Shown one piece after another: positions 8,208-62,380 of a DNA stretch of 64,000 bases. Position 1 is the stretch's first letter, and every line of letters starts with the position of its first letter. Position numbers and translations under genes: made by a program. The notes beneath the pieces were generated by a model. The model was not told the origin of the DNA and did no database searches. It saw nothing but the letters and a program-made list of their open reading frames with translations. This stretch comes from Omnitrophica bacterium GWA2_41_15. Lineage in GTDB: Bacteria; Omnitrophota; Gorgyraeia; Gygaellales; Profunditerraquicolaceae. The DNA lies in assembly GCA_919901915.1 (NCBI GenBank), contig CAKKQB010000013.1, forward strand, positions 64,192 to 128,191. The letters are read 5' to 3'.

Positions 8208-8255
8208 GATTTATCCGTGTTTATCCGTGTTCTTTTATCCGTGTCAATCCGTGTT
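8208..8255. repeat. B-type array: four TATCCGTGT motifs
   Basis: ggatttatccgtgtttatccgtgttcttttatccgtgtcaatccgtgtt lies directly 3' of the pilM-pilN stop. Same unit order as 14690-14736. Confidence 0.85.
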
Positions 8256-18922: not shown

Positions 18923-19029
18923 TAGCGTAGAGCGTAGAGCGGATAGTAAAATTAGCATTTAGCGTAGAGCGTAGAGCGTTTAATAAAAGTCTTTTGCCTT
19001 TTCTCTACGCTCTACGCTATACGCTATCC
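18923..19029. repeat. A-type heptamer-array hairpin (AGCGKAK)n ... (MTMCGCT)n
   Basis: tagcgtagagcgtagagcggatag...agcgtagagcgtagagcg-loop-ctctacgctctacgctatacgctatcc. The right arm contains the carA stop. Confidence 0.85.
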
Positions 19030-20102
19030 TTCATCATCTCTATAAATTTCCCAAATAGGTATTTCGTATCATGCGGACCAGGAGATGCCTCGGGATGAAA
19101 CTGAACAGAAAAAACAGGCAATTTCTTATGCCGCATTCCTTCCAGGGTATCGTCATTTAAATTTATATGCGTAAGCTCTATATCTTTCTTATCCAAAGAA
19201 TCTATGTCCACGCAAAAACCGTGATTTTGCGCTGTTATACAAACTTTTCCTGTCTTTAAGTCCTTAACCGGATGATTCGCGCCATGGTGGCCGAATTTAA
19301 GTTTATAGGTTTTACCGCCAAAAGCAAGCCCTAACATCTGATGGCCAAGGCAGATTCCGAATATCGGCAATTTACCAATTAAGCCTCTTGTTGTTTCTAC
19401 AACATATTTTACTGCTGATGGATCTCCCGGGCCGTTAGAAAGCAAAACCCCGTCAGGTTTAAGCTCTAAAATATCCTCTGCTCTTGTTTCAGCCGGCACA
19501 ACTACTGCTTCGCAATTATGCTCAACGAGCTCTCTTAAAATATTATATTTTACCCCGCAATCAATCACTACAACCTTATATTTAGCTTTCTTTAAACTAG
19601 GCCAGATATATTTTTTGGCACAACTTACCTCTTTAACTAAGTCTATTCCCGTCAGTCCCAATGACTTTTTTACTTTTTCCACTAAACTCTTTTCATCCAA
19701 ATCTCGCGTAGATAAAACTGCCTTCATCGCGCCTTTTTCTCTGACATGCAAGGTTAGCGCTCTTGTATCTATCCCTTCAATACCCATGATATTATTTTCT
19801 TCTAAGTATTCTCCTAATGACTGCTCCTTGCGCCAATTACTGGCAATTTTACTATATTCTTTTACCGCGAATCCTTCCAGAAACAACCCTGCTGACTCTG
19901 TATCAAGCCTGTTTACGCCATAATTACCAATTAAAGGATACGTCATCGTAACAATCTGGCCTTTATAAGAAGGGTCTGTCAAGATCTCCTGATACCCTGC
20001 CATACTGGTATTAAAAACTATCTCGCCATAGCTTTCGCCAGAAGCGCCAAAAGATTTACCCCTAAATATCATTCCGTCTTCTAATACAAGAATTGCTTCC
20101 AT
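19017..20102 (-). CDS. carA: carbamoyl-phosphate synthase small (glutaminase) subunit
   Basis: 361 aa. CPSase_sm N-domain plus class I GATase triad (GICLGHQ, HPE). Confidence 0.95.
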   Translation of the reverse strand: MEAILVLEDGMIFRGKSFGASGESYGEIVFNTSMAGYQEILTDPSYKGQIVTMTYPLIGNYGVNRLDTESAGLFLEGFAVKEYSKIASNWRKEQSLGEYLEENNIMGIEGIDTRALTLHVREKGAMKAVLSTRDLDEKSLVEKVKKSLGLTGIDLVKEVSCAKKYIWPSLKKAKYKVVVIDCGVKYNILRELVEHNCEAVVVPAETRAEDILELKPDGVLLSNGPGDPSAVKYVVETTRGLIGKLPIFGICLGHQMLGLAFGGKTYKLKFGHHGANHPVKDLKTGKVCITAQNHGFCVDIDSLDKKDIELTHINLNDDTLEGMRHKKLPVFSVQFHPEASPGPHDTKYLFGKFIEMMKDSV

Positions 20103-20107
20103 ATTTT

Positions 20108-20137
20108 TAGCGTATAGCGGATAGCGTAGAGCGTATA
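20108..20137. repeat. A-type heptamer array, single arm
   Basis: tagcgtatagcggatagcgtagagcgtata; no complementary arm seen nearby. Confidence 0.75.
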
Positions 20138-29156: not shown

Positions 29157-29427
29157 GTAATAGTTCAGCTCTCGGAAGTACCCGTCGGTGTCATTGCGAG
29201 CCCGAAGGGCGAAGCAATCTCTTTAAAAAGATTGCTTCGTCGCTATCGCTCCTCGCAATGAGACTGCGTCATAATTCGGTTTTGGTGTCATTCCGGCGAA
29301 AGCCGGAATCCATTCTCCGGCAATAACACAACTCACTGGATTCCGGCTTTCGCCGGAATGACGAATTTTTAACGATTATGACACAGTCTGAATGACACAA
29401 GTACTTCCAAGAGCTGAACTATTACCT
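29155..29427. mobile_element. composite nested palindromic element with about 21-bp inverted ends TAGTTCAGCTCTYGGAAGTAC
   Basis: Ends at 29161-29181 and 29400-29420 with 1 mismatch. Inside are core III (29190-29262) and an inverted pair of core I hairpins (29287-29311, 29338-29362). Confidence 0.65.
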
Positions 29428-33322: not shown

Positions 33323-34750
33323 TTAGATAATCGGCAAATTATTTTCTTGCGTCAAATACTTATCCATAAAATCAGCGCAGCGCCTTCCTTCTGAAATGGC
33401 CCAAACAATTAAAGACTGACCGCGACGCATATCTCCACAAGAAAAAACGCCTCGCCGAGAAGTCAGAAAACTTTCTTTTAACAAGTTGTTTCTCTCTGGG
33501 GGCAAAAAACCCAAGGCTAAAATTACCAAATCCCCATCGAGTTCAAATTCGCTTCCGGAAATTTCTTCCATTACAGAATGGCCTGATTCATTCTTCTTGA
33601 ATTCAACCCGGCAGCAAGAAAGCTTTTTTACGTGTCCATTCTCACCAATAAACTTTTTTGTGGAAACCGACCAATCGCGAATTCCAGCTTCTTGGTGGCT
33701 GGTAGTAGCCTTAAGAAGCAGCGGATACTTTGGCCAGGGATAATCACGCGTGCGGGATTCAGCCGGCCGCGGCATAATTTCAATCTGGGTGACGCTCTTC
33801 GCGCCTTGCCTATGCGCGACGCCGATACAATCCGCGCCGGTATCCCCGCCGCCAATCACCACAACTTTTTTATCTTTAGCATCAATAAGTTCATCCGAAG
33901 AAAATTTTACGCCTTGCGCTCTTTTATTTGATTGAATCAAATAATCCATCGCGAAATATATGCCTTTTAATTCCCTTCCTTCTATCTTTTCAGCCGCAGG
34001 CTGATCCGCCTTCGGCGGAAGATCCCGAGGAATACGAGAACCGCAAGCTAAACAAATCGCGTCAAACTCTTTTCTTGAATAAGGCGCCTTTAAATCCATA
34101 CCCACATTTATGCCCGGCATAAATTTTATTCCTTCCTTTTTCAAAATTTCTAAGCGCCGATCCAAAATCCTTTTTTCTAATTTAAAATCCGGGATCCCAT
34201 AGCGAAGAATACCGCCAATTTTATCATCCCGCTCAAACACCACTACATTATGCCCCGCCTTGTTTAATTGATCCGCGCAAGATAAGCCCGCAGGGCCAGA
34301 ACCAATAATTGCCACTTTTTTTCCGGTGCGCCTCTTAGGCGGATTAGGCTTAATAAATCCATGTTTAAACGCGTACTCAATTATTGCCAACTCATTCTCT
34401 CTTGTAGTTACCGCCTCATCATTAATCTCTAAAACACAGGCATATTCGCAAAGAGCCGGACAAATTCTGCCGGTAATCTCCGGAAAATTATTAGTAGCCG
34501 AAAGCAGCAAATAAGCCTTTTCCCACTTGCCGCGAAATAACAAATCATTCCATTCCGGGATATAATTACTAATGGGACAGCCCCAAAGACAAAACGGCGT
34601 CCCACAATCCATGCAGCGCGAAGCCTGCTCCATAGAATGTTCGACTGCAGGTAATATGCCCACTTCGCGATAATCTTGGACGCGTTCACAAACAGGCCTG
34701 CATTTAGATACTTGCCTTTTAACTTTTAAGAAACCTTTAATATCACCCAT
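33323..34750 (-). CDS. gltD: glutamate synthase small subunit (NAD(P)H)
   Basis: 475 aa. Fe-S Cys motifs, GSGPAGL and GGGDTG dinucleotide folds. 8-nt overlap with gltB. Confidence 0.9.
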   Translation of the reverse strand: MGDIKGFLKVKRQVSKCRPVCERVQDYREVGILPAVEHSMEQASRCMDCGTPFCLWGCPISNYIPEWNDLLFRGKWEKAYLLLSATNNFPEITGRICPALCEYACVLEINDEAVTTRENELAIIEYAFKHGFIKPNPPKRRTGKKVAIIGSGPAGLSCADQLNKAGHNVVVFERDDKIGGILRYGIPDFKLEKRILDRRLEILKKEGIKFMPGINVGMDLKAPYSRKEFDAICLACGSRIPRDLPPKADQPAAEKIEGRELKGIYFAMDYLIQSNKRAQGVKFSSDELIDAKDKKVVVIGGGDTGADCIGVAHRQGAKSVTQIEIMPRPAESRTRDYPWPKYPLLLKATTSHQEAGIRDWSVSTKKFIGENGHVKKLSCCRVEFKKNESGHSVMEEISGSEFELDGDLVILALGFLPPERNNLLKESFLTSRRGVFSCGDMRRGQSLIVWAISEGRRCADFMDKYLTQENNLPII

Positions 34751-37700
34751 CTGATGCCTCCACCAACTCTATTTTCTCTTCTGTTTTTCTGCCTCCTAAT
34801 ACACGTTTATATTCAATGGGCATAACTTTTACAAATTTTTTTAATTCAGGAGTAAAATTATCTAAGATATTTTTCGCGCTGGAACTGCGCGTATAATGAT
34901 AGTGATTAGAAAGCAACTTCTCGATTGTTCGCGCGTCTTCTTCGGCCACGGCCTCAAGTATTACCATTTCCATATTGCACTTATTCTTAAAATCTCCGTC
35001 CTTATCCCAAACATAGGCGATACCGCCTGACATACCCGCGGCAAAATTTCTTCCGGTTCTGCCGATAACCACAACTCTGCCTCCGGTCATATATTCGCAA
35101 GCGTGATCTCCTACGCCCTCAACCACCGCGTAAAGGCCGGAATTCCTGATACAAAATCTCTCACCGGCAATCCCGCGGATATAGGCAGAGCCTAAAATTG
35201 CTCCGTAAAAAGTAGTATTGCCAATAATAATATTTTCTTCTACTTTGTAATTTGATTGCCTATCCGGATAGATGATAATTTTCCCTCCGGACATACCTTT
35301 ACCTACATAATCATTCGTCAGGCCTTCTAACTCAAGAGTAACTCCTTTGGCAAGCCAAGCGCCAAAACTTTGACCTGCCACACCCTTAAATTTAAAGTGT
35401 ATCGTATTCGCGGGTAAACCATCCTCCCCAAAAATACGACAAACTTCGCCGCTTAACATCGTGCCGACACTACGATTATGATTTCTAATGGATAGCTCTA
35501 TTTTAATTGGCTTCCTATTTTCCAAGGCGCCCCGAGCCAATTCGATAAGTTTTCTATCTAGAATATTGTCAATTCCGTAATCCTGTTTATAAGGAGCCAA
35601 ACCACTGCCCTCTGGCTTGCGGCTCGGGCTATGGGAAGCCCGACCATTGCCCTTTGGCTGATATAAAATCCGGGAAAAATCTATTTTCTTTGCTTTCCAG
35701 GGAAGAATCTTGCTATTTACTTCCAACAAATCAGCGCGGCCAATCAGATCATCTATTTTAACAATACCTAAACTACTCATAATCTGACGCAATTCCTGGG
35801 CAATGAAACGAAAATAATTTTCTACATATTCCGGCTTCCCGCTAAAGCGTTTCTCTAAAAGTTCATCCTGCGTAGCCACGCCAAGAGAACAGTTATTTAA
35901 GTGGCAATGTCTAAGCATAACACATCCCAAAACAACTAAGACTGAAGTACAAAATCCAAACTCCTCCGCGCCCAAAAGCGCGGCCACAGCCACATCCCTG
36001 CCGGTGCGCATTCCTCCGTCAACCTGAAGCCTCACCCTGCTTCTTAAATCATTTAAAACCAGGGTCTGATGTGTTTCGGCAATACCTAATTCCCAGGGAA
36101 GCCCGGCATGCTTAATGGAACTTAAGGGGGATGCCCCGGTGCCGCCATCTCCGCCGGAAATCAAAATCATATCCGCGTGCCCCTTAGCCACTCCCGTGGC
36201 AATAGTTCCTACTCCAATTTCAGAAACAAGTTTTACACTAACGCGCGCGCGCGGATTAACATTTTTTAAATCAAAAATTAGCTGGGCTAAATCTTCAATA
36301 GAATAAATATCATGATGCGGCGGCGGAGAAATCAAAGTTACGCCGGGAGTTGTATAACGAATCTTAGCGATAGCCGCGCTTACTTTGTGGCCGGGAAGCT
36401 GGCCGCCTTCCCCGGGCTTAGCGCCTTGCGCGATTTTAATCTGCAATTCATCAGCATTTACTAAGTAATTCGTAATAACGCCAAAACGCCCGGAAGCAAC
36501 CTGCTTTATAGCGCTGCGCTTAGAATCTCCGTTTGGGAACGCGACAAAACGCGCTGGATCCTCTCCTCCTTCGCCGGTATTAGACCTACCCCCCAATCTA
36601 TTCATCGCGATAGCTATTGTTTCATGGCAAGCCTTACTAATTGAGCCAAAACTCATCGCGCCGGTAACAAAACGCCGGACGATTTCGCTAACCGGCTCTA
36701 CTTCTTCAATGGGAATAGGCTTAACTTCTTTAAATTTAAAAAGGCTTCTTAAAGTAGCAGGATTACTTGATTGATCATTAATGAGTTTCGCAAACTCCTG
36801 GTATTTTTTAGAATCATTATTTCTTACCGCACCCTGCAAAGCGGCAATACTATCCGGATTCCAAAGATGAAATTCACCGTCTTTCTTCCACTGATACAGG
36901 CCGCCAGTTGCTAAAAATGGCCTTTGTAAACCATCGACCGCGAATGCCTCTTTGTGCCTTAGAAGCGCTTCCTTCTCAATAATTCCTAAATCAATACCTC
37001 CAATACGGGAAACTGTTCCGGTGAAATATTTATCAATTACCTCTGAACTTAGGCCCAATGCCTCGAATATCTGCGCGCCCCGATAACTTTGTAAAGTAGA
37101 AATTCCCATTCTTGAGAGTATCTTTAGAATGCCTTTATCCACTGCCTTAATATAATGCTTTATCGCGGACTCTAAATCTAAGTCAACTTCCTTATCTCTA
37201 ATTAAAAAGGCGGCCGCTTCATAGGCAAGATACGGATTAATACAATCCGCGCCATACCCAAACAAGAGCGCGAAATGATGCACCTCGCGCGGAGAAGCGC
37301 TTTGAACAATAATACTTACCTGGGTACGCAGCGCCTTTCTTACCAAATCCTGATGCACACAAGCCGTTGCCAATAACGCGCTAAGGCAGGCCTTATCTTT
37401 ATTTATACCCTGATCACTTAAAATAACAAAAGTAAAACCCTCTTTTATCGCGGCTTCTGTTTCTTTGCAAATCCTGTCTAATGCTTTTTTAAAATTGTTT
37501 TTTTCTGAAATATTAAACAGAAGAGAAATTGTTTTTGTTTTAAAACCGTTCTTTTTTATATCGTGAATCTTTTTCAGATCTTCATTTGTCAAAATAGGAT
37601 TTTTTACTAATAACTTATGGCAATGCCGCGGCTGCTCATCCAAAATATTTTTTTGCGGCCCTAAATACGTATCAAGGCTCATCACCAGCTCTTCCCTGAT

Positions 37701-39386
37701 TGGGTCAATTGCCGGATTAGTAACCTGCGCGAATAACTGTTTAAAATAACTATAAAGCAACTGCGGCTTATCAGATAAAACCGCATGCGGGGTATCATTA
37801 CCCATTGAGCCATTCGGTTCATGAGAATCTTCCACCATAGGTTTAATGATAAATTTAAAATCCTCGCGGGTGTAACCGAAAGCTTTGAATAGAGTTAACG
37901 GATCTACTTTATTAGCGGATAGCGGATAGCTTTTATTAGCGTAGAGCGTAGAGCGTAAAGCGTAGAGCGTTTTGCTTTTCCTATCCGCTATACGCTCTAC
38001 GCTATCCGCTGATAATTTATCCAACTCTAACATATTTTTTTTAAGCCATTCTCCATACGGCTTAGAGCTTGCCATTGTTTCTTTTATTTCCTTATCTTCA
38101 ATTATGCGGCCTTCTTCTGTATCAACAAAAAGCATCTTTCCCGGTTCAAGCCTTCCTGAGATAGAAATATCATCCGGCGCGATATCTAAAACCCCTGCCT
38201 CTGAAGCCATAACTACCAAATTCTTTTTGGTCACAATATAGCGGCTAGGCCTTAAACCATTTCTGTCTAAAACCGCGCCAATCCTTACGCCATCAGTAAA
38301 GGCAATGGCTGCCGGTCCATCCCAGGACTCAATAAGACAAGTGTGGTATTTATAAAAATCTCTTACATTTTGACTCAAAAGATTATTCTGCTCCCAAGCG
38401 CTGGGTATTAACATCATCATCGCGTGAGACAAAGATCTACCCGATAAAACTAAAAGTTCAAAAACATTATCAATAGCCGCGGAATCGCTTCCCCCGGGAA
38501 CAATCACCGGAAAAATTTCCTTTAAATCCTTACCAAATAATTTACTTTTTAGTAAACCTTGGCGGGCAGTCATCCAATTTATATTCCCTTTTAAGGTATT
38601 TATCTCTCCATTATGCGCCAAGAACCGAAAAGGCTGCGCCAGATCCCAAGTGGGAAAAGTATTGGTACTATAACGGGAATGCACTAAACAAATCGCGCTT
38701 TGAAGAGCGCTGTCTTTTAAATCCAAAAAGAATTTCTCCAACTGCTCAGGCATAAGCAGGCCTTTATAAGAAAGCGTGCGGCAAGAAAGATTAGTAATAT
38801 AAAAAAATGATTTTTGTTTTAAGAATAAAGAGCGGATTTCGTTTTCTATTTTCTTGCGGATAATATAAAGCCTGCGCTCAAAATCAAGGCCATCCTTACC
38901 TATACTTAGACCTTTACCTTTACCTATAAAAACCTGCTCAATCACCGGTTGAGTAAGCTTTGCGGTTTTGCCAATCGCGGAATTATCAACCGGGACAATC
39001 CGCCAACCAAGCAAGGCCTGGCCCTCTTCTTTAATAATTCTAGCAAAGATACCCTTACATAACGCGCGCTCTTTTTTGTTAGTGGGAAGAAATACCATGC
39101 CTATCCCATAATCGCCAGAGGACGGTAAAATAAAATTTTCCTTCGCGCAGGCTTTTGCCAAAAATTCATGTGGCGCCTGAATAAGTATGCCTGCGCCATC
39201 CCCGGTCTCTGGGTCGGCGCCAGTTGCCCCGCGATGAGAAAGACGGCCTAAAACCTCCATGCCCTGTTTAATAATTTCATAAGATTTTTTGCCTTTGACA
39301 TCGCAAACAAATCCTACGCCGCAGGAATCATGTTCAAAACGGGAATCATACAACCCGTATTTTTCTAATTTCTGACGATTATCCAT
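34743..39386 (-). CDS. gltB: glutamate synthase large subunit
   Basis: 1547 aa. Ntn Cys (DSCGVGF), central domain, FMN domain and GXGXG domain. Contains two repeat-derived inserts. Confidence 0.95.
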   Translation of the reverse strand: MDNRQKLEKYGLYDSRFEHDSCGVGFVCDVKGKKSYEIIKQGMEVLGRLSHRGATGADPETGDGAGILIQAPHEFLAKACAKENFILPSSGDYGIGMVFLPTNKKERALCKGIFARIIKEEGQALLGWRIVPVDNSAIGKTAKLTQPVIEQVFIGKGKGLSIGKDGLDFERRLYIIRKKIENEIRSLFLKQKSFFYITNLSCRTLSYKGLLMPEQLEKFFLDLKDSALQSAICLVHSRYSTNTFPTWDLAQPFRFLAHNGEINTLKGNINWMTARQGLLKSKLFGKDLKEIFPVIVPGGSDSAAIDNVFELLVLSGRSLSHAMMMLIPSAWEQNNLLSQNVRDFYKYHTCLIESWDGPAAIAFTDGVRIGAVLDRNGLRPSRYIVTKKNLVVMASEAGVLDIAPDDISISGRLEPGKMLFVDTEEGRIIEDKEIKETMASSKPYGEWLKKNMLELDKLSADSVERIADRKSKTLYALRSTLYANKSYPLSANKVDPLTLFKAFGYTREDFKFIIKPMVEDSHEPNGSMGNDTPHAVLSDKPQLLYSYFKQLFAQVTNPAIDPIREELVMSLDTYLGPQKNILDEQPRHCHKLLVKNPILTNEDLKKIHDIKKNGFKTKTISLLFNISEKNNFKKALDRICKETEAAIKEGFTFVILSDQGINKDKACLSALLATACVHQDLVRKALRTQVSIIVQSASPREVHHFALLFGYGADCINPYLAYEAAAFLIRDKEVDLDLESAIKHYIKAVDKGILKILSRMGISTLQSYRGAQIFEALGLSSEVIDKYFTGTVSRIGGIDLGIIEKEALLRHKEAFAVDGLQRPFLATGGLYQWKKDGEFHLWNPDSIAALQGAVRNNDSKKYQEFAKLINDQSSNPATLRSLFKFKEVKPIPIEEVEPVSEIVRRFVTGAMSFGSISKACHETIAIAMNRLGGRSNTGEGGEDPARFVAFPNGDSKRSAIKQVASGRFGVITNYLVNADELQIKIAQGAKPGEGGQLPGHKVSAAIAKIRYTTPGVTLISPPPHHDIYSIEDLAQLIFDLKNVNPRARVSVKLVSEIGVGTIATGVAKGHADMILISGGDGGTGASPLSSIKHAGLPWELGIAETHQTLVLNDLRSRVRLQVDGGMRTGRDVAVAALLGAEEFGFCTSVLVVLGCVMLRHCHLNNCSLGVATQDELLEKRFSGKPEYVENYFRFIAQELRQIMSSLGIVKIDDLIGRADLLEVNSKILPWKAKKIDFSRILYQPKGNGRASHSPSRKPEGSGLAPYKQDYGIDNILDRKLIELARGALENRKPIKIELSIRNHNRSVGTMLSGEVCRIFGEDGLPANTIHFKFKGVAGQSFGAWLAKGVTLELEGLTNDYVGKGMSGGKIIIYPDRQSNYKVEENIIIGNTTFYGAILGSAYIRGIAGERFCIRNSGLYAVVEGVGDHACEYMTGGRVVVIGRTGRNFAAGMSGGIAYVWDKDGDFKNKCNMEMVILEAVAEEDARTIEKLLSNHYHYTRSSSAKNILDNFTPELKKFVKVMPIEYKRVLGGRKTEEKIELVEASDG
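35597..35658. repeat. E-type palindromic element inside gltB (in frame, linker between FMN and C-terminal domains)
   Basis: ccaaaccactgccctctggcttgcggctcgggctatgggaagcccgaccattgccctttggc encodes QPKGNGRASHSPSRKPEGSGL. Confidence 0.7.
37911..38010. repeat. A-type heptamer-array hairpin inside gltB (in frame)
   Basis: attagcggatagcggatagc...tagcgtagagcgtagagcgtaaagcgtagagcg-loop-ctatccgctatacgctctacgctatccgct encodes SADSVERIADRKSKTLYALRSTLYANKSYPLSAN. Confidence 0.85.
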
Positions 39387-39389
39387 ATT

Positions 39390-39558
39390 TTTAGCGTATA
39401 GCGTATAGCGTAGAGCGTAGAGCGTATAGCGTATAGCGTAGAACGTAGAGCGTAGAGCGGATAGCGGATAGTAAAAATCTATGTTTTAACTATATGTTAT
39501 CCGCTATTCCTACACGCTTTCTTTCCTATCCGCTAAACGCTATACGCTCTACGCTAAT
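39390..39558. repeat. A-type heptamer-array hairpin, largest copy (left arm about 11 units)
   Basis: tagcgtatagcgtatagcgtagagcgtagagcgtatagcgtatagcgtagaacgtagagcgtagagcggatagcggatag, then a loop, then a degenerate complementary arm. Confidence 0.85.
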
Positions 39559-41785: not shown

Positions 41786-41803
41786 GTGTTCCTCCTTTTA
41801 ATA

Positions 41804-41840
41804 GTGTATAGCGGATAGTTTTACTTTTTTTTATCCACTA
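41804..41840. repeat. short degenerate A-type hairpin
   Basis: gtgtatagcggatag-ttttactttttt-ttatccacta. Confidence 0.5.
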
Positions 41841-43083: not shown

Positions 43084-43121
43084 TTAAAAACAAGAAGCCC
43101 CAAAACATTTTGGGGCTTCTT
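43084..43121 (-). terminator. intrinsic-terminator-like hairpin + U tract located inside the predicted leader of the Rh-type channel gene
   Basis: Minus strand reads aagaagccccaaaatgttttggggcttctt followed by gttttt. Confidence 0.6.
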
Positions 43122-43147
43122 TGCCTTTGACTTAATTGTCAATTAAG

Positions 43148-43175
43148 ATCATAGCATATTTCATATTCTTGTCAA
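43148..43175 (-). promoter_or_regulatory. sigma70-type promoter (tttttcTTGACA-16-TATGAT) upstream of the Rh-type channel gene
   Basis: Minus strand reads TTGACAagaatatgaaatatgcTATGAT, followed by palindrome cttaattgacaattaag. Confidence 0.5.
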
Positions 43176-44659: not shown

Positions 44660-44732
44660 TTTAGCGGATAGCGTATAGCGTATATATAGGTTTTACTATC
44701 CGCTATACGCTCTACGCTATACGCTATACGCT
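44660..44732. repeat. A-type heptamer-array hairpin
   Basis: tttagcggatagcgtatagcgtata-loop-tatccgctatacgctctacgctatacgctatacgct. The right arm contains the nfnA stop. Confidence 0.85.
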
Positions 44733-45569
44733 TGATATTTTAAGATTACAGATATGCTTTTCTTTATCTAAATAAACACTGTTCCTCTTTGTCAATTCAT
44801 CCCAATTTACTTGAGTTCCGTCAAATTCCGGGCCATCAACGCAAGCAAATTTCGTCTTACCTGCCACAGTTACACGGCAACAGCCGCACATTCCAGTAGC
44901 ATCTACCATCAAAGGATTCAAAGAAACAATGGTTTTAACTTTAAAATCGCTAGCAACCTCGCAAACTCTTCTCATCATCGGTATCGGGCCGACTGCGTAA
45001 ATTAGCGAATAGCGGATAGCGGATAGTGAATAGCTTAATACCTCCTGCAAAATATCAGTAACAAAGCCTTTCCTGCCGCAAGAACCGTCATCAGTGGTTA
45101 TATAAAGCTCATCGCAAAACACCTTTAGCTCCTGCTCCAAAATCAATAAATCATTGTTTCTTGCGCCCAGTATAGTAGTAGTATGGTTTCCCGCTTCTTT
45201 CAAAGCCTTGGCAACCGGATAAATCTCCGCAATTCCTACGCCTCCGCCTACAAGAATTAAATTTCCAAAATTTTTAATCTCAGTAGCATGCCCCAGGGGC
45301 CCGGCCAAAGCGTATAATGAATCACCAACCTCCATCTTGCCCAGCAACTTAGTAGTTAAGCCAACCTCTTGAAAGATCAAGGTAATTGTGCCTATGTCAG
45401 AATTTTTATCTACTATAGTTAGAGGTATCCTTTCGCCTTCCTCGCATACCATAAGAACAACAAATTGGCCCGGTCTTACTTTCCTGGCAATAAGCGGGCT
45501 TAAGATTTCAAAGCGCTTAATTGTTACGTCTTGCGTTTGTGCTAAAATTTCTTTTTTGATTATCCGCAT
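44724..45569 (-). CDS. nfnA: NfnA/SudB-like FAD/NAD-binding ferredoxin-reductase-type subunit (PyrK family)
   Basis: 281 aa. Has RPGQFV, GGGVGIA and a C-terminal 2Fe-2S Cys cluster (GMCGCCRV...CVDGPEF). Confidence 0.75.
   Translation of the reverse strand: MRIIKKEILAQTQDVTIKRFEILSPLIARKVRPGQFVVLMVCEEGERIPLTIVDKNSDIGTITLIFQEVGLTTKLLGKMEVGDSLYALAGPLGHATEIKNFGNLILVGGGVGIAEIYPVAKALKEAGNHTTTILGARNNDLLILEQELKVFCDELYITTDDGSCGRKGFVTDILQEVLSYSLSAIRYSLIYAVGPIPMMRRVCEVASDFKVKTIVSLNPLMVDATGMCGCCRVTVAGKTKFACVDGPEFDGTQVNWDELTKRNSVYLDKEKHICNLKISSV
45001..45035. repeat. A-type heptamer array (single arm) inside nfnA, in frame
   Basis: agcgaatagcggatagcggatagtgaatagc encodes SYSLSAIRYSLIY. Confidence 0.7.
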
Positions 45570-45740: not shown

Positions 45741-46478
45741 TTACTTTACATCACTGTAATCATTCTTATTTTTTAATTCGGCAGTTAAAATAATTGCTTC
45801 GGCGATTTCGCGCATGGACTTACGTTTATCCATACTCTGTTTTTGAATTAATCTGTAGGCCTCGGATGGTTTTACATCTGCCTCCTGGGAAAGTATATCC
45901 TTTGCCCGTTCAATCAGCTTGCGGGTAACTAAGGCTTCTTCAGCGCTATGCGCCCGCAAAGATAATTCAGCATTTTCAATGGCCATAGCCGTCTGATTGG
46001 CCAAAGTTGTAAGAAGACTTATCTCGGATTTTGTAAACTTATGTCTTTTTGAGGTATAACAATTAAGCACGCCGATTACTGTCCCTCTTACTGCCAAAGG
46101 GACACTAGCCAAAGAACAAAGCCCTTCTTTTTTAGCGATGTCCCTATTTAAGTAATCCGCGTCTTCCCTGACATCCAAAACAACCATTGATTTATTATCC
46201 CGCGCAACCGCTCCCGCAATCCCCTCTCCTAATTTTATATTGGGTTTTTTATTGTAGCTTTGAGAAATAGACTGGGTCGCGCGTACAACTAATTCTTTCC
46301 TCTCGGAATCAAGAAGCATCAAAGAAGAGATTTTTAAATTCATCACCTGGGCAGTAACCTCAACAACTAAACGAAGAAGCTCGTCCAGATACAAGCCTGA
46401 AGTAATCAGGTTCGCGACCTTAGAAATCGCCTCAATCTGCTTTGTATAAACCTGATAACCCTTTACCTTTTTAATCAT
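45741..46478 (-). CDS. GAF + ANTAR domain RNA-binding antitermination regulator
   Basis: 245 aa. A GAF domain, then an ANTAR-like C-terminus (LVTRKLIERAKDILSQEADVKPSEAYRLIQKQSMDKRKSMREIAEAII). Confidence 0.85.
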   Translation of the reverse strand: MIKKVKGYQVYTKQIEAISKVANLITSGLYLDELLRLVVEVTAQVMNLKISSLMLLDSERKELVVRATQSISQSYNKKPNIKLGEGIAGAVARDNKSMVVLDVREDADYLNRDIAKKEGLCSLASVPLAVRGTVIGVLNCYTSKRHKFTKSEISLLTTLANQTAMAIENAELSLRAHSAEEALVTRKLIERAKDILSQEADVKPSEAYRLIQKQSMDKRKSMREIAEAIILTAELKNKNDYSDVK

Positions 46479-47649: not shown

Positions 47650-47716
47650 AGCGTTTAGCGGATAGCGTTTAGCGTATAGTTTTTTTTATCCGCTATACGC
47701 TCTACGCTATACGCTA
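47650..47716. repeat. A-type heptamer-array hairpin
   Basis: cagcgtttagcggatagcgtttagcgtatag-ttttttt-tatccgctatacgctctacgctatacgcta. Confidence 0.85.
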
Positions 47717-48225: not shown

Positions 48226-48287
48226 GGAGAGAACAGATTACAGAGTACGGATTACTGAAAGATTTTTCTGTGCTCTGTTCTCTGTGC
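48226..48287. repeat. C-type heptamer hairpin (CAGAGMA units), overlapping the nadE 3' end
   Basis: ggagagaacagattacagagtac...ctgtgctctgttctctgtgc. Related to 61007-61095. Confidence 0.7.
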
Positions 48288-49008
48288 TTTCTTTAATATA
48301 GCATATTTTCGGCCCTTCCCTCTTATGCTCTGATTTCTTTACCATATTTTTTACTTTATTTACTTTCTCTTTTGATAAGACCTGTTTCTTCTTGTTTTCC
48401 AAACGCTCCAATATGTCATCTAACTCGTTATAGGTAAGCCCCATTTCTCCTTCATCGGTCTGGCCTGGCCAGAGTCCGGCAGTAGGCGGCTTAGTAACAA
48501 TGGATTCGGGAATCTTTAATTCTTTAGCCAATGCCCTTACCTGTTTTTTTAATAAACCGCCGATTGGCAAAATATCCGTTGCCCCGTCGCCATACTTGGT
48601 AAAATAACCGACTTCAATTTCAGATCTATTTCCTGTGCCGCAGACAAGATAATTAAGTTTATTGGCAAAATAATATAAAACTAACATCCTTAAGCGCGGT
48701 TTTAAATTTGCCAAAGCTAACGGCCCCGCTTTGGGTAAAATTTTCATGACATTGTCGTAAATATCAGCCAAATCAATTAATTTTATTTTTATCCCAAATT
48801 TCCTTGCCACTAACTTTGCGTCATCTAAATCCTGTTTTTGACTATGACAGCCAAGAAACAAAACCAAAAGTTTTTGTTTACCCAGCGCTTCCCTGGCTAA
48901 AACAGCTACCACCGCGGAATCTATCCCCCCGCTTAAACCCATAACAATACCCTTTGCCTTAGCCGCTTTGACCTGCTGCCTAATCCAAGAAATAATTTTC
49001 TTTTTCAT
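48238..49008 (-). CDS. nadE: NH3-dependent NAD+ synthetase
   Basis: 256 aa with the SGGIDS PP-loop. The last about 16 aa (STENRAQKNLSVIRTL) are repeat-derived. Confidence 0.9.
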   Translation of the reverse strand: MKKKIISWIRQQVKAAKAKGIVMGLSGGIDSAVVAVLAREALGKQKLLVLFLGCHSQKQDLDDAKLVARKFGIKIKLIDLADIYDNVMKILPKAGPLALANLKPRLRMLVLYYFANKLNYLVCGTGNRSEIEVGYFTKYGDGATDILPIGGLLKKQVRALAKELKIPESIVTKPPTAGLWPGQTDEGEMGLTYNELDDILERLENKKKQVLSKEKVNKVKNMVKKSEHKREGPKICYIKESTENRAQKNLSVIRTL

Positions 49009-51991: not shown

Positions 51992-52164
51992 CTGTTGCGA
52001 AATGCCATTTTTCGTCATTCCGGCGAAAGCCGGAATCCAGAACTCTTTGATTTCAATAGGCTTATGGATACCGGCGACCGAGGGCGAAATGCCCGAGGAA
52101 GTGTCAGAGCCCAACTGGGCTCGACCTTTCGCCGGTATGACGGTTTTAATGTATTTCGCAACAG
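51992..52164. mobile_element. MITE-like element, copy 2 (173 bp)
   Basis: Collinear with 8025-8197, differing by a few substitutions. It starts 4 nt after the 51824-51987 element. Confidence 0.75.
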
Positions 52165-53642: not shown

Positions 53643-53700
53643 ATTAGCGCGGATAGCGTTTAATTTTTTCTATACGCTATACGCTCTACGCTATACGCTA
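53643..53700. repeat. A-type heptamer-array hairpin
   Basis: ttagcgcggatagcgttta-atttttt-ctatacgctatacgctctacgctatacgcta. Confidence 0.85.
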
Positions 53701-56068: not shown

Positions 56069-56160
56069 TTTTTTTCTCCCTATCGTATTACATTTGACAC
56101 TATCATATTACACGTATTGTCAAAAGTATTTAGTTAATTCTTTTATATCTGCTGGCTCTT

Positions 56161-56218
56161 GTCATTCCGGCGAAAGCCGGAATCCAGTCTTCTGGACCCC
56201 GGCTTTCGCCGGGGTGAC
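56161..56218. repeat. core I hairpin + GACCCCGGCTTTCGCCGGGGTGAC hairpin in the nrdJ leader
   Basis: Same module pair as 6123-6215. Confidence 0.8.
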
Positions 56219-56238
56219 ATCTTAAATTTTCTATAATA

Positions 56239-59775: not shown

Positions 59776-61116
59776 TTAATGAAATTTTTTCTTGGCTTTT
59801 TTTGAGATACACAAGGCGGGATTTTTCCAAAACTCTTTGAGCGTATAATAAGCTTTGCGGGGAGAGCGTTTATTCAACCTTTGTCCTGCCGGGTCTTTAC
59901 TGCCTAATAAGGCATCCTCAGGCTCTTGCGACAATGCCACAATACCAAACCACTCTTCATTCATATTTTTATTGCCTTCTACCTTTATATCAAAATAATA
60001 GTTTCCGTTAGACCAATTCGAACCAGTATCATGCTCGAGCCACGTATCAGAGGCATGCTCATCATACTTCCACCATTCATCTGACCACTCAAAAATAACG
60101 CCGCCTAAACAATTGCCCGCGCCTTTCTTATTACCCGCCAGATTCCCATAAATCTGACACCATTGAGATTCCAGGAAAAATGCCTGCATATCCTGATCTT
60201 CCTTTTTTAAATAGGCATCATAACAATCAGCACCAATTTCTACCAAAAGAATTGGCTTGTCAAAAGTTAATTTTAAAGATTTAAAAAGGTTTCCAAAGGT
60301 CTTACCTCTATAGATAATGCAAGCAATCAAATCTACGTCAGGACAATATTCCTTCGCGTATTCCAACCCTGTCAACTCGCCATTCCCCAATGCCACAGGA
60401 TGTTGAGGGTCGAGTTCATGGACAGCTTTCGTCAAATCATTTACATAAGAATAATAAATCCTGGAACGTATGGCTCCTTGTTTCTGGGGATCTGGTTCTT
60501 TTTCTGCTTCTTCGCAGGCCCAAGGATTAACACGGCCTAAACAAGAATAGTTATTTTCATTGCCCATAATCCACATAAGCAATCCGGGCTCGTCCTTATA
60601 TAAGCTGACCATATCCAGGACATCTTTCTTTATTCTTTCCTGAAAACCCTTATCTCCATAGAATGGGCCGGGATACTCCCAAAAAGATAACCAATGGCCT
60701 AAAATTGTGCGTATTCCGTAAAGCTGATAAAGCTCGCTAATTACTTTTTTTACCGCTTCTGGATTATCTCCCGGCTGATAAATTCTTATGGTATTAACCC
60801 CCATCTCATGCATCAGTTTTCCGTCTACAATCCAAGGTTTATTGGGGTCAGACCACCAGTCATATTCGTGATTCTTACCAATAGGAACAGGATTATAACA
60901 AACCCCTTTTACGATGTAAGGTTTTTTATCTACTATCAACTGGTAGTAATTATTTTTAAGTTTTTTAATATAAACTCCGGGCTTTGGCTTTGAGGCCATA
61001 CCCATTAAAAACAGAACACAGAGCACAGAAAACAGAGAACAGAATATTTTTCTCTGTGCTCTGCGCTCTGTTCTCTGTGCTCTATTTTCCGTTCTCTTAT
61101 TCATACTTAATTTCAT
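59776..61116 (-). CDS. clan GH-A (beta/alpha)8 glycoside hydrolase (GH2/GH72-like motifs), paralogue 1
   Basis: 446 aa. Has VKGVCYNP, GVNTIRIY, WIMGNENNY (acid/base) and LLVEIG (nucleophile region). The N-terminal 40 aa are encoded by repeat 61007-61095. Confidence 0.7.
   Translation of the reverse strand: MKLSMNKRTENRAQRTERRAQRKIFCSLFSVLCVLFLMGMASKPKPGVYIKKLKNNYYQLIVDKKPYIVKGVCYNPVPIGKNHEYDWWSDPNKPWIVDGKLMHEMGVNTIRIYQPGDNPEAVKKVISELYQLYGIRTILGHWLSFWEYPGPFYGDKGFQERIKKDVLDMVSLYKDEPGLLMWIMGNENNYSCLGRVNPWACEEAEKEPDPQKQGAIRSRIYYSYVNDLTKAVHELDPQHPVALGNGELTGLEYAKEYCPDVDLIACIIYRGKTFGNLFKSLKLTFDKPILLVEIGADCYDAYLKKEDQDMQAFFLESQWCQIYGNLAGNKKGAGNCLGGVIFEWSDEWWKYDEHASDTWLEHDTGSNWSNGNYYFDIKVEGNKNMNEEWFGIVALSQEPEDALLGSKDPAGQRLNKRSPRKAYYTLKEFWKNPALCISKKAKKKFH
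61007..61095. repeat. C-type heptamer-array hairpin (CAGAGMA)n / (TKCTCTG)n inside the 5' end of the hydrolase ORF
   Basis: acagaacacagagcacagaaaacagagaacagaa-tattttt-ctctgtgctctgcgctctgttctctgtgctc. Confidence 0.8.
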
Positions 61117-62290: not shown

Positions 62291-62307
62291 TTTACCCCTC
62301 CCATTTT

Positions 62308-62379
62308 TCGTATTACGTGATGCGTGACGCGTATCGCGTTAAAATTTTCGCAATACGCACAACGCACGACGCAATACGA
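62308..62379. repeat. D-type heptamer hairpin (CGTNNNN units)
   Basis: tcgtatta cgtgatg cgtgacg cgtatcg cg-ttaaaatttt-cg caatacg cacaacg cacgacg caatacga. The arms are only partly complementary. Confidence 0.65.
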
Positions 62380-62380
62380 A

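What the first reader, a model, noticed from the sequence alone, without database searches (positions are those of the whole stretch)
39390..39558. Family of hairpins whose arms are tandem heptanucleotide arrays (AGCGKAK)n, placed at gene junctions
On the + strand, runs of 7-nt units (AGCGTAT, AGCGTAG, AGCGGAT) are followed by a short AT-rich loop and then the complementary units (CTACGCT, ATACGCT, ATCCGCT). I see nine copies:
- 18923-19029 (carA/carB junction)
- 20108-20137 (single arm)
- 37911-38010 (inside gltB)
- 39390-39558 (gltB/glnN junction; left arm about 11 units)
- 41804-41840 (degenerate)
- 44660-44732 (nfnA/nfnB junction)
- 45001-45035 (inside nfnA)
- 47650-47716
- 53643-53700

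All lie between or inside co-directional genes. None is followed by a U tract on the coding strand, so they are not ordinary intrinsic terminators. Arms built from 7-nt units can pair in several slipped registers.

Heptanucleotide tandem repeats are known as STRR sequences in heterocystous cyanobacteria, and junction hairpins as REP/BIME in enterobacteria. I do not recognise this combination of inverted heptamer arrays abutting stop codons. All copies fall between 18.9 and 53.7 kb, in the metabolic operons, not the pilus or glycan loci.
Basis: partly seen in the sequence, partly recalled or inferred. Interest (0 to 1): 0.72.

Follow-up and report, generated by a model that had tools for sequence, protein, structure and literature searches.

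The report
Heptad-armed hairpin repeats between genes

Summary
All nine sites carry AGCGNNN heptad arrays, and seven form hairpins. The window is an Omnitrophota metagenome contig with every gene on the minus strand.

This is more than loose microsatellite. A 23-mer shared by three window copies recurs in more than 111 distinct metagenome contexts. There it usually has a partner arm of defined unit order, 4+4 heptads and a 9-10 nt loop.

Placement and orientation are strongly non-random:
- The 5' end abuts or supplies the upstream stop codon.
- The 3' end lies 4-10 nt before an SD-less AUG, or just before the SD.
- Orientation relative to the gene is biased 63:12.

Downstream genes are ordinary housekeeping genes, so this is not a nitrogen regulon. 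Copies also sit in frame inside gltB and nfnA. Sister genomes lack them at the same junctions.

Generic (AGCGKAK)n arrays are no commoner than shuffled-unit controls. Inverted heptamer arrays between co-directional genes are already described in Xanthomonas, and start-codon-abutting heptamer arrays in Beggiatoaceae.

Verdict: a new, lineage-specific REP/MITE-like repeat with microsatellite arms. It is probably a tolerated intercistronic stem-loop that may couple translation. Mobility and function are both inferred, not shown.

The parts
47650..47715 (-). Canonical copy. It has 4+4 heptads and an 8-nt loop. It fills the spacer between the asnC-family stop (47717) and the aminotransferase start (47642).
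   Evidence: Best match to the profile built from 32 metagenome copies: 77.4 bits on the minus strand against 46.0 on the plus strand. RNA fold -30.1 kcal/mol, z -5.6. Units listed.
39393..39555 (-). Largest copy, in the glnN/gltB spacer. The start-proximal arm has 11 heptads and the stop-proximal arm about 5. It ends 6 nt before the gltB ATG (39386). The glnN stop is at 39590, with a small terminator-like hairpin at 39587-39564 in between.
   Evidence: -84.1 kcal/mol, z -7.2. TRF finds a 28-nt higher-order period, 2.6 copies, 93% match. Identical in two assemblies.
18924..19025 (-). Copy in the carA/carB spacer. The carA stop (19017-19019) lies inside the 5' arm. The carB ATG at 18916 is 7 nt after the 3' arm.
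   Evidence: -41.7 kcal/mol, z -4.4. carB start supported by Pfam CPSase_L_D1 matching from residue 7.
20109..20136 (-). Single start-proximal arm (4 heptads) between the purF stop (20158) and the carA ATG (20102). The spacer to the ATG is AAAAAU.
   Evidence: Unstructured as RNA (-2.7 kcal/mol). Matches only the 3' half of the profile. purF and carA identified by Pfam.
37914..38010 (-). Complete hairpin translated in frame inside gltB (SADSVERIADRKSKTLYALRSTLYANKSYPLSA). It lies in the linker between the amidotransferase and central domains.
   Evidence: About 25 extra residues relative to GltB of L121. An element sits at the same nucleotide position in gltB of L323, whose GltB is 71% identical. 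RNA fold -46.6 kcal/mol, z -5.9.
44663..44732 (-). Copy in the nfnA/nfnB spacer. The nfnA stop (44724-44726) is a UAG supplied by the 5' arm. The nfnB ATG (44635) follows 27 nt later, behind an AAGAGG Shine-Dalgarno.
   Evidence: -32.3 kcal/mol, z -4.9. Profile score 70.0 bits on the minus strand.
45004..45034 (-). Single arm inside nfnA. It is translated as LSAIRYSLI and occupies a short variable stretch.
   Evidence: Alignment to Pyrococcus NfnI chain 5jca_S shows only a 3-residue length difference at this point. Units.
53648..53699 (-). Copy between the ribonucleotide reductase stop (53711) and the phosphoglycerate mutase ATG (53637). The start-proximal arm is eroded.
   Evidence: Weak fold (-16.8 kcal/mol, z -1.6). 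Profile score 48.9 bits on the minus strand.
41803..41840 (-). Degenerate remnant between the amtB stop (41866) and the glnN ATG (41785). It lies upstream of a GGAGG Shine-Dalgarno.
   Evidence: Fold -15.4 kcal/mol, z -2.2. Only marginal profile matches, E about 0.06.
61008..61097 (-). Same architecture built from a different heptad (ACAGARN / CTCTGTK). It lies near the junction of two overlapping ORFs, 59776-61116 and 61097-62290. It is not a member of the AGCG family.
   Evidence: RNA fold -50.4 kcal/mol, z -9.2.
62307..62380 (-). Same architecture from a third heptad (ACGCRNN). It spans from the upstream stop to the GGGAGGGG Shine-Dalgarno of ORF 61097-62290.
   Evidence: repeat I9. RNA fold -41.1 kcal/mol, z -6.5.
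48228..48288 (-). Weaker hairpin of the ACAGARN type at the NAD-synthase/asnC junction.
   Evidence: RNA fold -25.3 kcal/mol, z -2.6.

Best explanation
Shown:
- These are copies of a high-copy dispersed palindromic repeat of about 65 nt, found mainly in Candidatus Omnitrophota.
- Its consensus on the mRNA strand is UU-AGCGUAU-AGCGUAG-AGCGUAU-AGCGGAU-AG(A5 or U5)CU-AUACGCU-AAACGCU-AUCCGCU-AAACGCU-AAAA.
- Each arm is a run of AGCG-type heptads. The arms gain and lose whole units, and blocks of units, as a microsatellite does.
- The element lodges in the short spacer between the stop codon of one gene and the ribosome-binding region of the next co-directional gene, usually in one orientation.
- It is occasionally tolerated in frame in permissive protein linkers.

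Inferred:
- It spreads by a copy mechanism of the REP or MITE type.
- It is transcribed within polycistronic mRNAs and folds into an interrupted stem of 5-6 bp blocks.
- That fold puts the upstream stop and the downstream start at the base of the same helix. A ribosome terminating upstream would melt the basal turns and expose the start. The insertion would therefore preserve or enforce translational coupling, and would be tolerated for that reason.
- The long duplex could also act as an exonuclease barrier or an RNase III site.
For: Discrete family:
- The 23-mer shared by window copies at 37983, 44698 and 47688 occurs in more than 118 metagenome stretches, 111 of them distinct contexts.
- 87 of the 111 have a partner arm. 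The modal architecture is 4+4 heptads with a 9-10 nt loop.
- The partner arm was not part of the search. It is within 2 mismatches of one 28-mer in 31 of 111 contexts, and within 4 mismatches in 52.
- A profile built from those copies recovers all nine window sites. It finds nothing in two sister loci and only a marginal hit (E 0.019) in the third.

Lineage:
- GlnN relatives are all Omnitrophota.
- In named genomes, 10 of the 16 best full-length profile hits are Omnitrophota MAGs. High-GC phyla match one arm only.

Placement:
- In the window, the 3' arm ends 2-7 nt before the ATG in 4 of 5 arms scored. The upstream stop lies from 9 nt inside the element to 34 nt away.
- In metagenomes, the spacer to the start is 1-10 nt in 37 cases, mostly A-rich with no SD. 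Otherwise it is 12-48 nt, often with a canonical SD.
- A co-directional upstream stop is nearby in 73 contexts. In 32 of those it is a UAG supplied by the element itself.
- 49 of 111 contexts have the upstream stop tight against the 5' end and a downstream start within 60 nt.
- Orientation relative to the downstream gene is 63:12, p = 1.7e-9. By profile score it is 70:16.

RNA hairpins.

Slippage: arms of 11 versus 5 units, a 28-nt higher-order period, and arm sizes from 2 to 5 units elsewhere.

Turnover and insertion:
- Absent at orthologous junctions in three sister genomes with 87-88% GlnN identity.
- Present in frame in gltB and nfnA.
- Present at the same gltB site in L323, upstream of carA in L314 and upstream of glnN in L296.

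Not a regulon: downstream genes are diverse.
Against: - No transposase or other recurrent neighbouring gene was found.
- No unambiguous target-site duplication. The TA at both ends is part of the palindrome.
- Mobility is therefore inferred only from copy number and shared sequence.
- The metagenome sample was ascertained on one arm, so the conservation of that arm says nothing. Some contexts are close strains of one another.
- The arms pair imperfectly: about 4 mismatches in 28 positions. The unselected arm varies without compensation. Selection for a perfect helix is not evident.
- At the glnN/gltB copy the stop lies 34 nt upstream of the hairpin, with a terminator-like hairpin in between. 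Coupling cannot apply there.
- The orientation bias is unexplained. I could not separate a link to transcription from a link to replication; only three contigs have mixed orientation.
- Short intergenic spacers alone would force a 65-nt insert to touch both the stop and the start.
- No expression data were available.
Confidence: 0.55

Rival explanations
1. Plain microsatellite. Each locus grew its own heptamer array by polymerase slippage, with occasional strand switching creating the inverted arm. Nothing is dispersed or mobile, and the arrays are neutral filler of intergenic DNA.
For: - Heptamers are the most over-represented long simple repeats in bacteria (Mrazek 2007, as cited in PMC4679880, and PMC4692102).
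- (AGCGKAK)3 is no commoner in viral contigs (34 stretches) than two shuffled-unit controls (29 and 33).
- The same contig carries hairpins and arrays of other 7- and 8-nt units at junctions.
- Arms are unequal and there is a 28-nt higher-order repeat.
- Period 7 dominates the loci from other phyla.
Against: - Independent slippage would not produce the same heterogeneous order of units in both arms, the same loop (AGTTTTTCT or its complement) and the same 4+4 size in dozens of unrelated contexts.
- It would not produce a 63:12 orientation bias.
- A whole hairpin inside gltB is hard to grow in situ without passing through frameshifts.
Confidence: 0.12
2. Adaptive cis-regulatory RNA. The heptad stem-loop is a translational operator or enhancer, read by a trans-acting factor such as ribosomal protein S1, a CsrA-like protein binding the apical GGA, or another protein that recognises the heptad repeats. 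It sets the expression of the downstream cistron.
For: - Fixed orientation relative to the downstream gene, and a narrow distance to the AUG or SD.
- The start-proximal arm alone can stand immediately before carA with no SD.
- Elements are retained at carA, glnN and gltB in genomes only 54-74% identical in those proteins.
- Similar proposals exist for TAACTGA arrays (PMC4679880) and for Nostoc heptamers (10.1101/2022.06.06.494920).
Against: - Downstream genes share no function.
- Sister genomes manage the same junctions without the element. Two of four genomes have short unstructured spacers at asnC/aminotransferase.
- Copies occur inside coding sequences.
- Arm length and unit content vary freely.
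- No candidate factor was identified.
Confidence: 0.2
3. Operator sites of a nitrogen regulon. For example, targets of the neighbouring GAF-ANTAR regulator or of a GlnR/NtcA-like factor, given their position by carA, carB, gltB, glnN, amtB and an aminotransferase.
For: Most window copies flank nitrogen-assimilation genes, and a GAF-ANTAR gene lies at 45741-46478.
Against: - One window copy lies between ribonucleotide reductase and phosphoglycerate mutase.
- In 30 related loci the downstream genes include alr, pgk, uppS, purA, ackA, cca, ilvD, pfk, glyQ, lpxC and others.
- The anatomy is one long stem with a 9-10 nt loop. From my own knowledge, ANTAR targets are two short hairpins with hexaloops.
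- Sister genomes with the same regulator lack the element.
Confidence: 0.02
4. Intrinsic terminators or attenuators separating transcription units.
For: Stable GC-containing stems between genes.
Against: - On the coding strand the stem is followed by AAAA and the start codon, and preceded by U.
- The terminator scan picks up array sequence only on the antisense strand, using loop T-runs as the tail.
Confidence: 0.02
5. Assembly artefact of low-complexity sequence.
For: Short-read metagenome assembly; repetitive 7-mers.
Against: - The sequence is identical in an independent assembler's contig.
- Arrays are shorter than a read.
- The element recurs in more than 100 contigs from many projects.
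- In-frame copies keep long ORFs open.
Confidence: 0.01

Closest known systems
Xanthomonas (GGGANTN)n heptamer arrays (Rehm et al. 2015, PMC4692102)
   Same: - Heterogeneous 7-nt units with a conserved core and two variable positions.
- About 185 arrays per genome, 89-93% intergenic, mostly between co-directional genes.
- 70-75 arrays are convergent pairs that could form stem-loops.
- They lie close to the upstream gene's 3' end.
- They are not conserved at the same genes between two species.
   Different: - The unit sequence differs (G-rich and quadruplex-prone there; AGCG core here).
- No fixed order of units or fixed loop was reported there.
- There the arrays lie far from the downstream start (about 160 nt on average), whereas here they abut it.
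- Different phylum.
TAACTGA direct repeats of Beggiatoaceae, cyanobacteria and Bacteroidetes (MacGregor 2015, PMC4679880)
   Same: - Heptamer arrays ending a few nt before start codons, in a preferred orientation.
- They often replace any Shine-Dalgarno.
- Some overlap the end of the upstream ORF, and a few are translated inside ORFs.
- Downstream genes share no common function.
   Different: - Those are direct arrays: only 1 inverted case in 170 sets.
- Here the inverted two-arm hairpin is the rule (7 of 9 in the window; 87 of 111 elsewhere).
REP/BIME and REPIN elements of proteobacteria
   Same: High-copy imperfect palindromes in transcribed intergenic DNA after stop codons. They form RNA stem-loops and show lineage-specific expansion. 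(Properties from my own knowledge; PMC3116915 appeared in a literature search but I did not read it.)
   Different: - REPs are 20-40 nt, are not built from tandem units, and are tied to a RAYT transposase gene.
- No such gene could be looked for here.
- REPs are not known for abutting start codons.
Correia and ERIC-type miniature inverted-repeat elements
   Same: Non-autonomous palindromic insertions of 60-150 nt. They are co-transcribed with neighbouring genes, fold into long hairpins that RNases process, and are present or absent between close relatives. (From my own knowledge; not tested here.)
   Different: - Those have unique-sequence arms, a clear TA duplication and a known parent IS family.
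- Here the arms are tandem heptads and no duplication can be distinguished from the palindrome.
STRR heptanucleotide repeats of heterocystous cyanobacteria
   Same: Tandem 7-nt units dispersed in intergenic regions (Mazel 1990, as cited in PMC4692102).
   Different: Different units (CCCCAGT and others, from my own knowledge), different phylum, and not described as a discrete two-arm element.
Rickettsia palindromic elements
   Same: Palindromic repeats that insert in frame into protein-coding genes and are translated. (From my own knowledge.)
   Different: Those are 100-150 nt, are not heptad-built and lie mainly in ORFs. Here only 2 of 9 copies are in ORFs.

Membership tests
Heptanucleotide long simple-sequence repeats (STRR, GGGAATC and TAACTGA class) | Head-to-tail arrays of a 7-nt unit, with imperfect units allowed | tested here: met
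   TRF period 7 at all sites. 35 double units against 0.01 expected. Unit lists.
Heptanucleotide long simple-sequence repeats (STRR, GGGAATC and TAACTGA class) | Strong preference for intergenic DNA, mostly between co-directional genes | tested here: met
   Window: 7 of 9 sites at junctions, with all genes co-directional. Other genomes (low-GC loci): 54 intergenic plus 10 boundary of 77 arrays, and 42 of 54 flanks co-directional.
Heptanucleotide long simple-sequence repeats (STRR, GGGAATC and TAACTGA class) | Unit sequence of a named family (CCCCAGT/TTGGTCA/CAACAGT, GGGAATC or TAACTGA) | tested here: not met
   The unit is AGCG followed by three variable bases. The sequences were not found in the full-text library.
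Heptanucleotide long simple-sequence repeats (STRR, GGGAATC and TAACTGA class) | Arrays explained by local slippage alone, with no conserved order of unit variants between loci | tested here: not met
   The same order of unit variants in both arms, and the same loop, recur in dozens of contexts.
REP/BIME (RAYT-associated) | High-copy imperfect palindrome in extragenic, transcribed DNA | tested here: met
REP/BIME (RAYT-associated) | Conserved terminal GTAG/CTAC tetranucleotide (from my own knowledge) | tested here: inconclusive
   GTAG occurs inside AGCGTAG units, but the element ends are TTAGCG...CGCTAA.
REP/BIME (RAYT-associated) | A cognate Y1 (RAYT) transposase gene in the same genome | not testable with these tools
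   Only about 77 kb of this genome is held. No transposase was seen among the window ORFs annotated with Pfam. No recurrent neighbouring protein in 117 loci.
MITE (Correia-like) | Terminal inverted repeats | tested here: met
   The two arms are 80-96% complementary.
MITE (Correia-like) | Target-site duplication flanking the insertion | tested here: inconclusive
   TA is present at both ends but is part of the palindrome TTAGCG...CGCTAA. No longer direct repeat is visible in the flanks.
MITE (Correia-like) | A parent insertion sequence with the same ends | not testable with these tools
   No complete genome is available, and none was seen in the loci held.
Intrinsic terminator | GC-rich stem followed directly by a U tract on the transcribed strand | tested here: not met
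   The stem is followed by AAAA and the AUG. The consensus scan flags only the antisense strand.
ANTAR or nitrogen-regulon operator | Restricted to genes of one regulon, and made of two short hairpins with hexaloops (from my own knowledge) | tested here: not met
   Diverse downstream genes. Anatomy is a single long stem with a 9-10 nt loop.
Any Rfam 15 family | Match at or above the gathering score | tested here: not met
   Only a tRNA in the window. The best hit on the canonical copy is 18.7 bits against a gathering score of 94.

The most novel reading that the evidence does not exclude
The element is a purpose-built intercistronic module. It is a heptad-periodic stem-loop that juxtaposes stop and start codons so that downstream genes lacking a Shine-Dalgarno are translated only by ribosomes handed over from the upstream cistron. 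Alternatively, it is read by a protein that recognises the heptad repeats. Unit-number slippage would then act as a heritable tuning knob for operon stoichiometry across Omnitrophota. A second novel reading is a new class of microsatellite-armed mobile element with an unknown, strand-specific mobilising enzyme.
Probability: 0.2. Interest if true: 0.75.

Novelty: new variant of a known kind. Interest (0 to 1): 0.5.

Why it matters
Omnitrophota are an abundant, mostly uncultured phylum, and nothing has been described about their repeat content or post-transcriptional organisation.

This element may number in the hundreds per genome: nine copies in 64 kb here. It occupies the exact position where translation of the next gene begins. 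It may therefore bear on three matters:
- Gene calling. It supplies stop codons and in-frame peptides.
- Operon expression.
- Genome plasticity.

It also links two phenomena usually treated apart, microsatellite-like heptamer arrays and REP/MITE-like palindromes. It offers a sequence-defined family in which the long-open question of what intergenic heptamer arrays do could be tested with simple reporters.

If it proves to be only a tolerated selfish insert, it is still a useful marker for Omnitrophota lineages and a warning for annotation.

Tried and rejected
1. Nitrogen regulon or ANTAR target. Suggested by the window's gene content and the adjacent GAF-ANTAR gene. Rejected after Pfam surveys of flanking genes in the window and in 30 other loci.
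2. A universally special heptamer. The genome-wide scan hit many phyla. However, shuffled-unit controls in viral contigs were equally frequent, and high-GC phyla match only one arm.
3. A linked gene such as a transposase. All-against-all BLAST of ORFs in 117 loci found no recurrent neighbour.
4. Known RNA family. Rfam at gathering and at permissive thresholds gave nothing.
5. Strain-level unit-number polymorphism. Exact-protein look-ups returned only this same genome.
6. Order-specificity controls for the 23-mer in viral contigs. Zero hits for the real and the permuted patterns, so uninformative.
7. Separating replication-linked from transcription-linked orientation. Only three contigs have mixed orientation.
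8. How widespread the gltB insertion is. The search returned only gene fragments, none carrying the element peptide. It did show that the linker is normally 12-21 residues and occasionally hosts other repeats.
9. Covariation analysis. Not meaningful, because one arm was fixed by the search and the other varies without compensation.
10. The extra 13 kb of the same contig holds no AGCG copies.
Full report
**1. What is in the window**

The window is part of a 95 kb metagenome contig, ENA ERZ1292638 NODE_67.
- Its type III glutamine synthetase has 83-89% identical relatives, and every one that carries a name is Candidatus Omnitrophota.
- All substantial ORFs lie on the minus strand, and GC skew is uniformly negative on the plus strand.
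- The pattern (AGCGKAK)2 occurs 35 times, against 0.01 expected.
- TRF finds period-7 arrays at each of the nine reported sites. A one-mismatch unit scan lists the units.
- On the plus strand every two-armed copy reads AGCG-type units, then a short loop, then the complementary CGCT-type units.

Folded as minus-strand RNA, five copies are strongly stable. Free energies run from -30 to -84 kcal/mol and z-scores from -4.4 to -7.2. Two copies are weak, and the single arm at 20.1 kb is unstructured.

The 39.4 kb copy is identical in an independent Logan assembly.

**2. Anatomy relative to genes**

With gene starts checked by Pfam and homology:
- The start-proximal arm ends 6-7 nt before the ATG of carB (18916), carA (20102), gltB (39386) and the aminotransferase (47642). 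The eroded arm of the 53.7 kb copy ends about 10 nt before the phosphoglycerate mutase ATG (53637). None of these five has a Shine-Dalgarno.
- At glnN and nfnB a Shine-Dalgarno lies between the element and the ATG.
- The upstream stop lies inside the 5' arm at carA and nfnA, 1 nt away at asnC, and 11 nt away at ribonucleotide reductase. It is 34 nt away at glnN, where a small terminator-like hairpin intervenes.
- No U tract follows any stem on the coding strand, so these are not intrinsic terminators.

Two copies are translated:
- A whole hairpin in gltB adds about 25 residues to the linker between the amidotransferase and central domains.
- A single arm in nfnA encodes LSAIRYSLI, with a net length change of 3 residues relative to a solved NfnI structure.

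**3. The AGCG family is not the only one here**

- Hairpins of the same design, built from other heptads, lie at 48228-48288, 61008-61097 and 62307-62380.
- The 13 kb of contig outside the window carries further 7- and 8-nt arrays ending at start codons.
- This genome is therefore rich in short-unit arrays in general. The restriction of the AGCG family to 18.9-53.7 kb is a sampling matter. A profile search found no AGCG copy elsewhere in the 77 kb held.

**4. Is the heptamer itself special? No**

- A scan of one genome per species found (AGCGKAK)3 in more than 117 stretches from many phyla. My estimate of the chance expectation is about 17.
- In those loci period 7 is by far the commonest tandem period, with many different units.
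- In viral contigs the pattern is found 34 times, and two composition-matched shuffled units are found 29 and 33 times.
- Generic heptamer arrays of any sequence are thus common. This agrees with the known over-representation of heptamer repeats.
- In the low-GC loci the arrays are 70% intergenic plus 13% at gene boundaries, and mostly between co-directional genes.

**5. Is there a discrete element? Yes**

Three window copies share the block ATCCGCTATACGCTCTACGCTAT. These fall into 111 distinct contexts, some of them close strains of one another.

Features that the search did not select are nevertheless shared:
- 87 of 111 have the partner arm.
- The modal form is 4+4 heptads with a 9-10 nt loop. 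The loop reads AGTTTTTCT or its exact complement AGAAAAACT, that is, a flipped loop between unflipped arms.
- The partner arm is within 2 mismatches of AGCGTTTAGCGGATAGCGTTTAGCGTAT in 31 contexts and within 4 mismatches in 52.

The window copy at 47650-47715 is the canonical form. A profile built from 32 metagenome copies finds all nine window sites, and in five of six it scores higher on the gene-sense strand.

In named genomes, full-length matches are nearly all in Omnitrophota MAGs. The remainder are a few unnamed or PVC-labelled bins. High-GC phyla match one arm only.

No paper in the searchable library contains these sequences or describes Omnitrophota repeats. Rfam has no matching family.

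**6. Placement and orientation in the wider sample**

- 68 contexts have a gene starting next to the AAACGCU-type arm, and 17 next to the other arm. Counting exclusive cases, this is 63 against 12 (p = 1.7e-9). Orientation judged by profile score gives 70 against 16.
- The spacer to the start takes two forms. It is either 1-10 nt (37 cases, mostly A-rich with no SD), or 12-48 nt, often with a canonical SD placed normally.
- 73 contexts have a co-directional upstream stop close to the 5' end. In 32 of these the stop is a UAG supplied by the element.
- 49 of 111 contexts have the upstream stop tight against the 5' end and a downstream start within 60 nt.
- The downstream genes in 30 contexts are unrelated housekeeping genes. 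They include alanine racemase, pgk, uppS, purA, ackA, cca, a sigma factor, ilvD, pfk, glyQ, lpxC-fabZ and holA. The nitrogen-regulon idea is therefore rejected.

**7. Evolutionary behaviour**

- Three sister contigs share the gene order nadE-asnC-aminotransferase-GAF/ANTAR-amt-PII-glnN, and two of them continue into gltB. Their GlnN is 87-88% identical to the window's. None carries the element at the orthologous junctions. One has a weak related heptamer run at asnC/aminotransferase.
- At those junctions the sisters have either unrelated hairpins or short unstructured spacers. A hairpin is therefore not required there.
- Conversely, more distant relatives do carry the element at equivalent places:
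  - L323 (GltB 71% identical to the window's) has it at the same nucleotide of the gltB linker.
  - L314 has it upstream of carA.
  - L296 has it upstream of glnN.
- I cannot tell ancient retention from repeated insertion. The identity of the 5' arm is ascertained, and the other arm differs between the copies.
- Arms vary from 2 to 11 units, and the 39.4 kb copy contains a duplicated 28-nt block. This shows microsatellite-type growth in place.
- No gene recurs near the arrays in 117 loci.

**8. Interpretation**

Shown:
- a discrete, oriented, high-copy palindromic repeat with heptad arms;
- specific to an Omnitrophota lineage;
- sitting between stop and start codons and sometimes in frame;
- with arms that slip.

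Inferred:
- It spreads by a REP- or MITE-like copy mechanism.
- It is tolerated mainly where, as a compact hairpin, it keeps the upstream stop and the downstream start next to each other at the helix base.
- A terminating ribosome would open the basal turns and expose the start, so translational coupling would be preserved or made obligatory.
- Duplexes of 25-35 bp are also plausible substrates for RNase III, or barriers to exonucleases.

The main rivals are in-situ slippage alone and a true regulatory operator read by a trans-acting factor. Slippage alone is contradicted by the shared unit order, loop and orientation. The operator reading is compatible with the orientation and spacing. It is weakened by the diversity of genes, the absence from sister genomes, the in-ORF copies and the free variation of the arms.

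**9. Comparison with what is known**

The closest precedents are:
- The Xanthomonas (GGGANTN)n arrays: about 185 per genome, 70-75 of them convergent pairs, intergenic between co-directional genes, and not conserved between species (PMC4692102).
- The TAACTGA arrays, which end just before start codons in Beggiatoaceae (PMC4679880).

The present family combines the two placements. It adds a fixed two-arm sequence, as a REP or MITE has. It fails the sequence definitions of all the named families, and the defining transposase of REPs could not be sought.

I class it as a new variant of a known kind. Interest is moderate:
- The phenomenon is not unprecedented and its function is unproven.
- The family appears undescribed, is very sharply positioned, and could make the old question of what intergenic heptamer arrays do experimentally approachable.

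Noticed in passing
window 29287-29362, 52013-52142, 56160-56219: A second, unrelated dispersed palindrome (GTCATTCCGGCGAAAGCCGGAATCCAG and its complement). It occurs three times in intergenic DNA, once with 26-nt arms that are 100% complementary. It looks like a classical REP-type element.
   Followed up: no
window 14714-15598: A 464-bp unit repeated 1.9 times at 100% identity, spanning two pilin-like ORFs with the N-terminal methylation motif. Arrays of the decamer TTTATCCGTG lie in and around it (14013-14046, 14692-14734, 15178-15198) and also at 8210-8255. It is either a real tandem duplication or an assembly effect.
   Followed up: no
L121 9842-10000 and 12200-12359; L122 9833-10000 and 12197-12623: In two sister genomes, the leaders of glnN and of the HTH_8-gltB operon share a conserved motif (GTTACC..N..TTTACTTGTAT). 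It is followed by a short hairpin and a stem with a T-run. This may be an attenuator served by the nearby GAF-ANTAR regulator. The window lacks these leaders and the HTH_8 gene, and has heptad elements in their place.
   Followed up: partly
window 43092-43175: Upstream of amtB there is a near-consensus promoter (TTGACA, 16 nt, TATGAT with a TG extension) followed by a strong 13-bp terminator-like hairpin. This could be the regulated leader of an amtB-glnN-gltB unit in this genome.
   Followed up: no
window 17279-18916: carB is only 545 residues. It has the pre-ATP-grasp, first ATP-grasp and oligomerisation domains, and is followed directly by a type II secretion F-family (pilC-like) gene. The second half of carB must lie elsewhere or be absent.
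   Followed up: partly
L221 1570-1602 and 4702-4806 (same contig, beyond the window's right end): Perfect heptamer arrays inside coding sequence. (TTCTGTT)4.7 encodes the hydrophobic core of a signal peptide. (TCAGCCG)4.6 and (TTACCAC)4.4 lie at the start of a glycoside hydrolase gene.
   Followed up: no
L221 2848-2901 and 3826-3844: An 8-nt unit hairpin (GTTAGCCK / AAACCGGC) and a (TAGCTGA)2.7 array each end directly at a start codon with no Shine-Dalgarno. TAGCTGA differs by one base from the TAACTGA repeat of Beggiatoaceae.
   Followed up: no
proteins P0186 and P0147 (GltB fragments from other organisms): The same GltB inter-domain linker, normally 12-21 residues, carries 67- and 33-residue Gly/Glu-rich repetitive insertions in unrelated organisms. 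The site seems generally permissive to in-frame repeat insertions.
   Followed up: no
L067 5088-5251 (Gammaproteobacteria MAG): A nested hairpin made of two heptad families. (AGCGGAT)4 and (GTGAGTC)n on one side mirror (CAACTCA)n and (ATCCGCT)4 on the other. In Gemmatimonadales loci L060 and L066 the arm order is reversed, around a central GC-rich hairpin.
   Followed up: no
window 12476-13969, 19017-20102, 34743-39386: Three genes share nearly the same start context, GCUAAAAAUAU(C)AUG. This suggests that the A-rich tail of the repeat doubles as a translation-initiation context that needs no Shine-Dalgarno.
   Followed up: no
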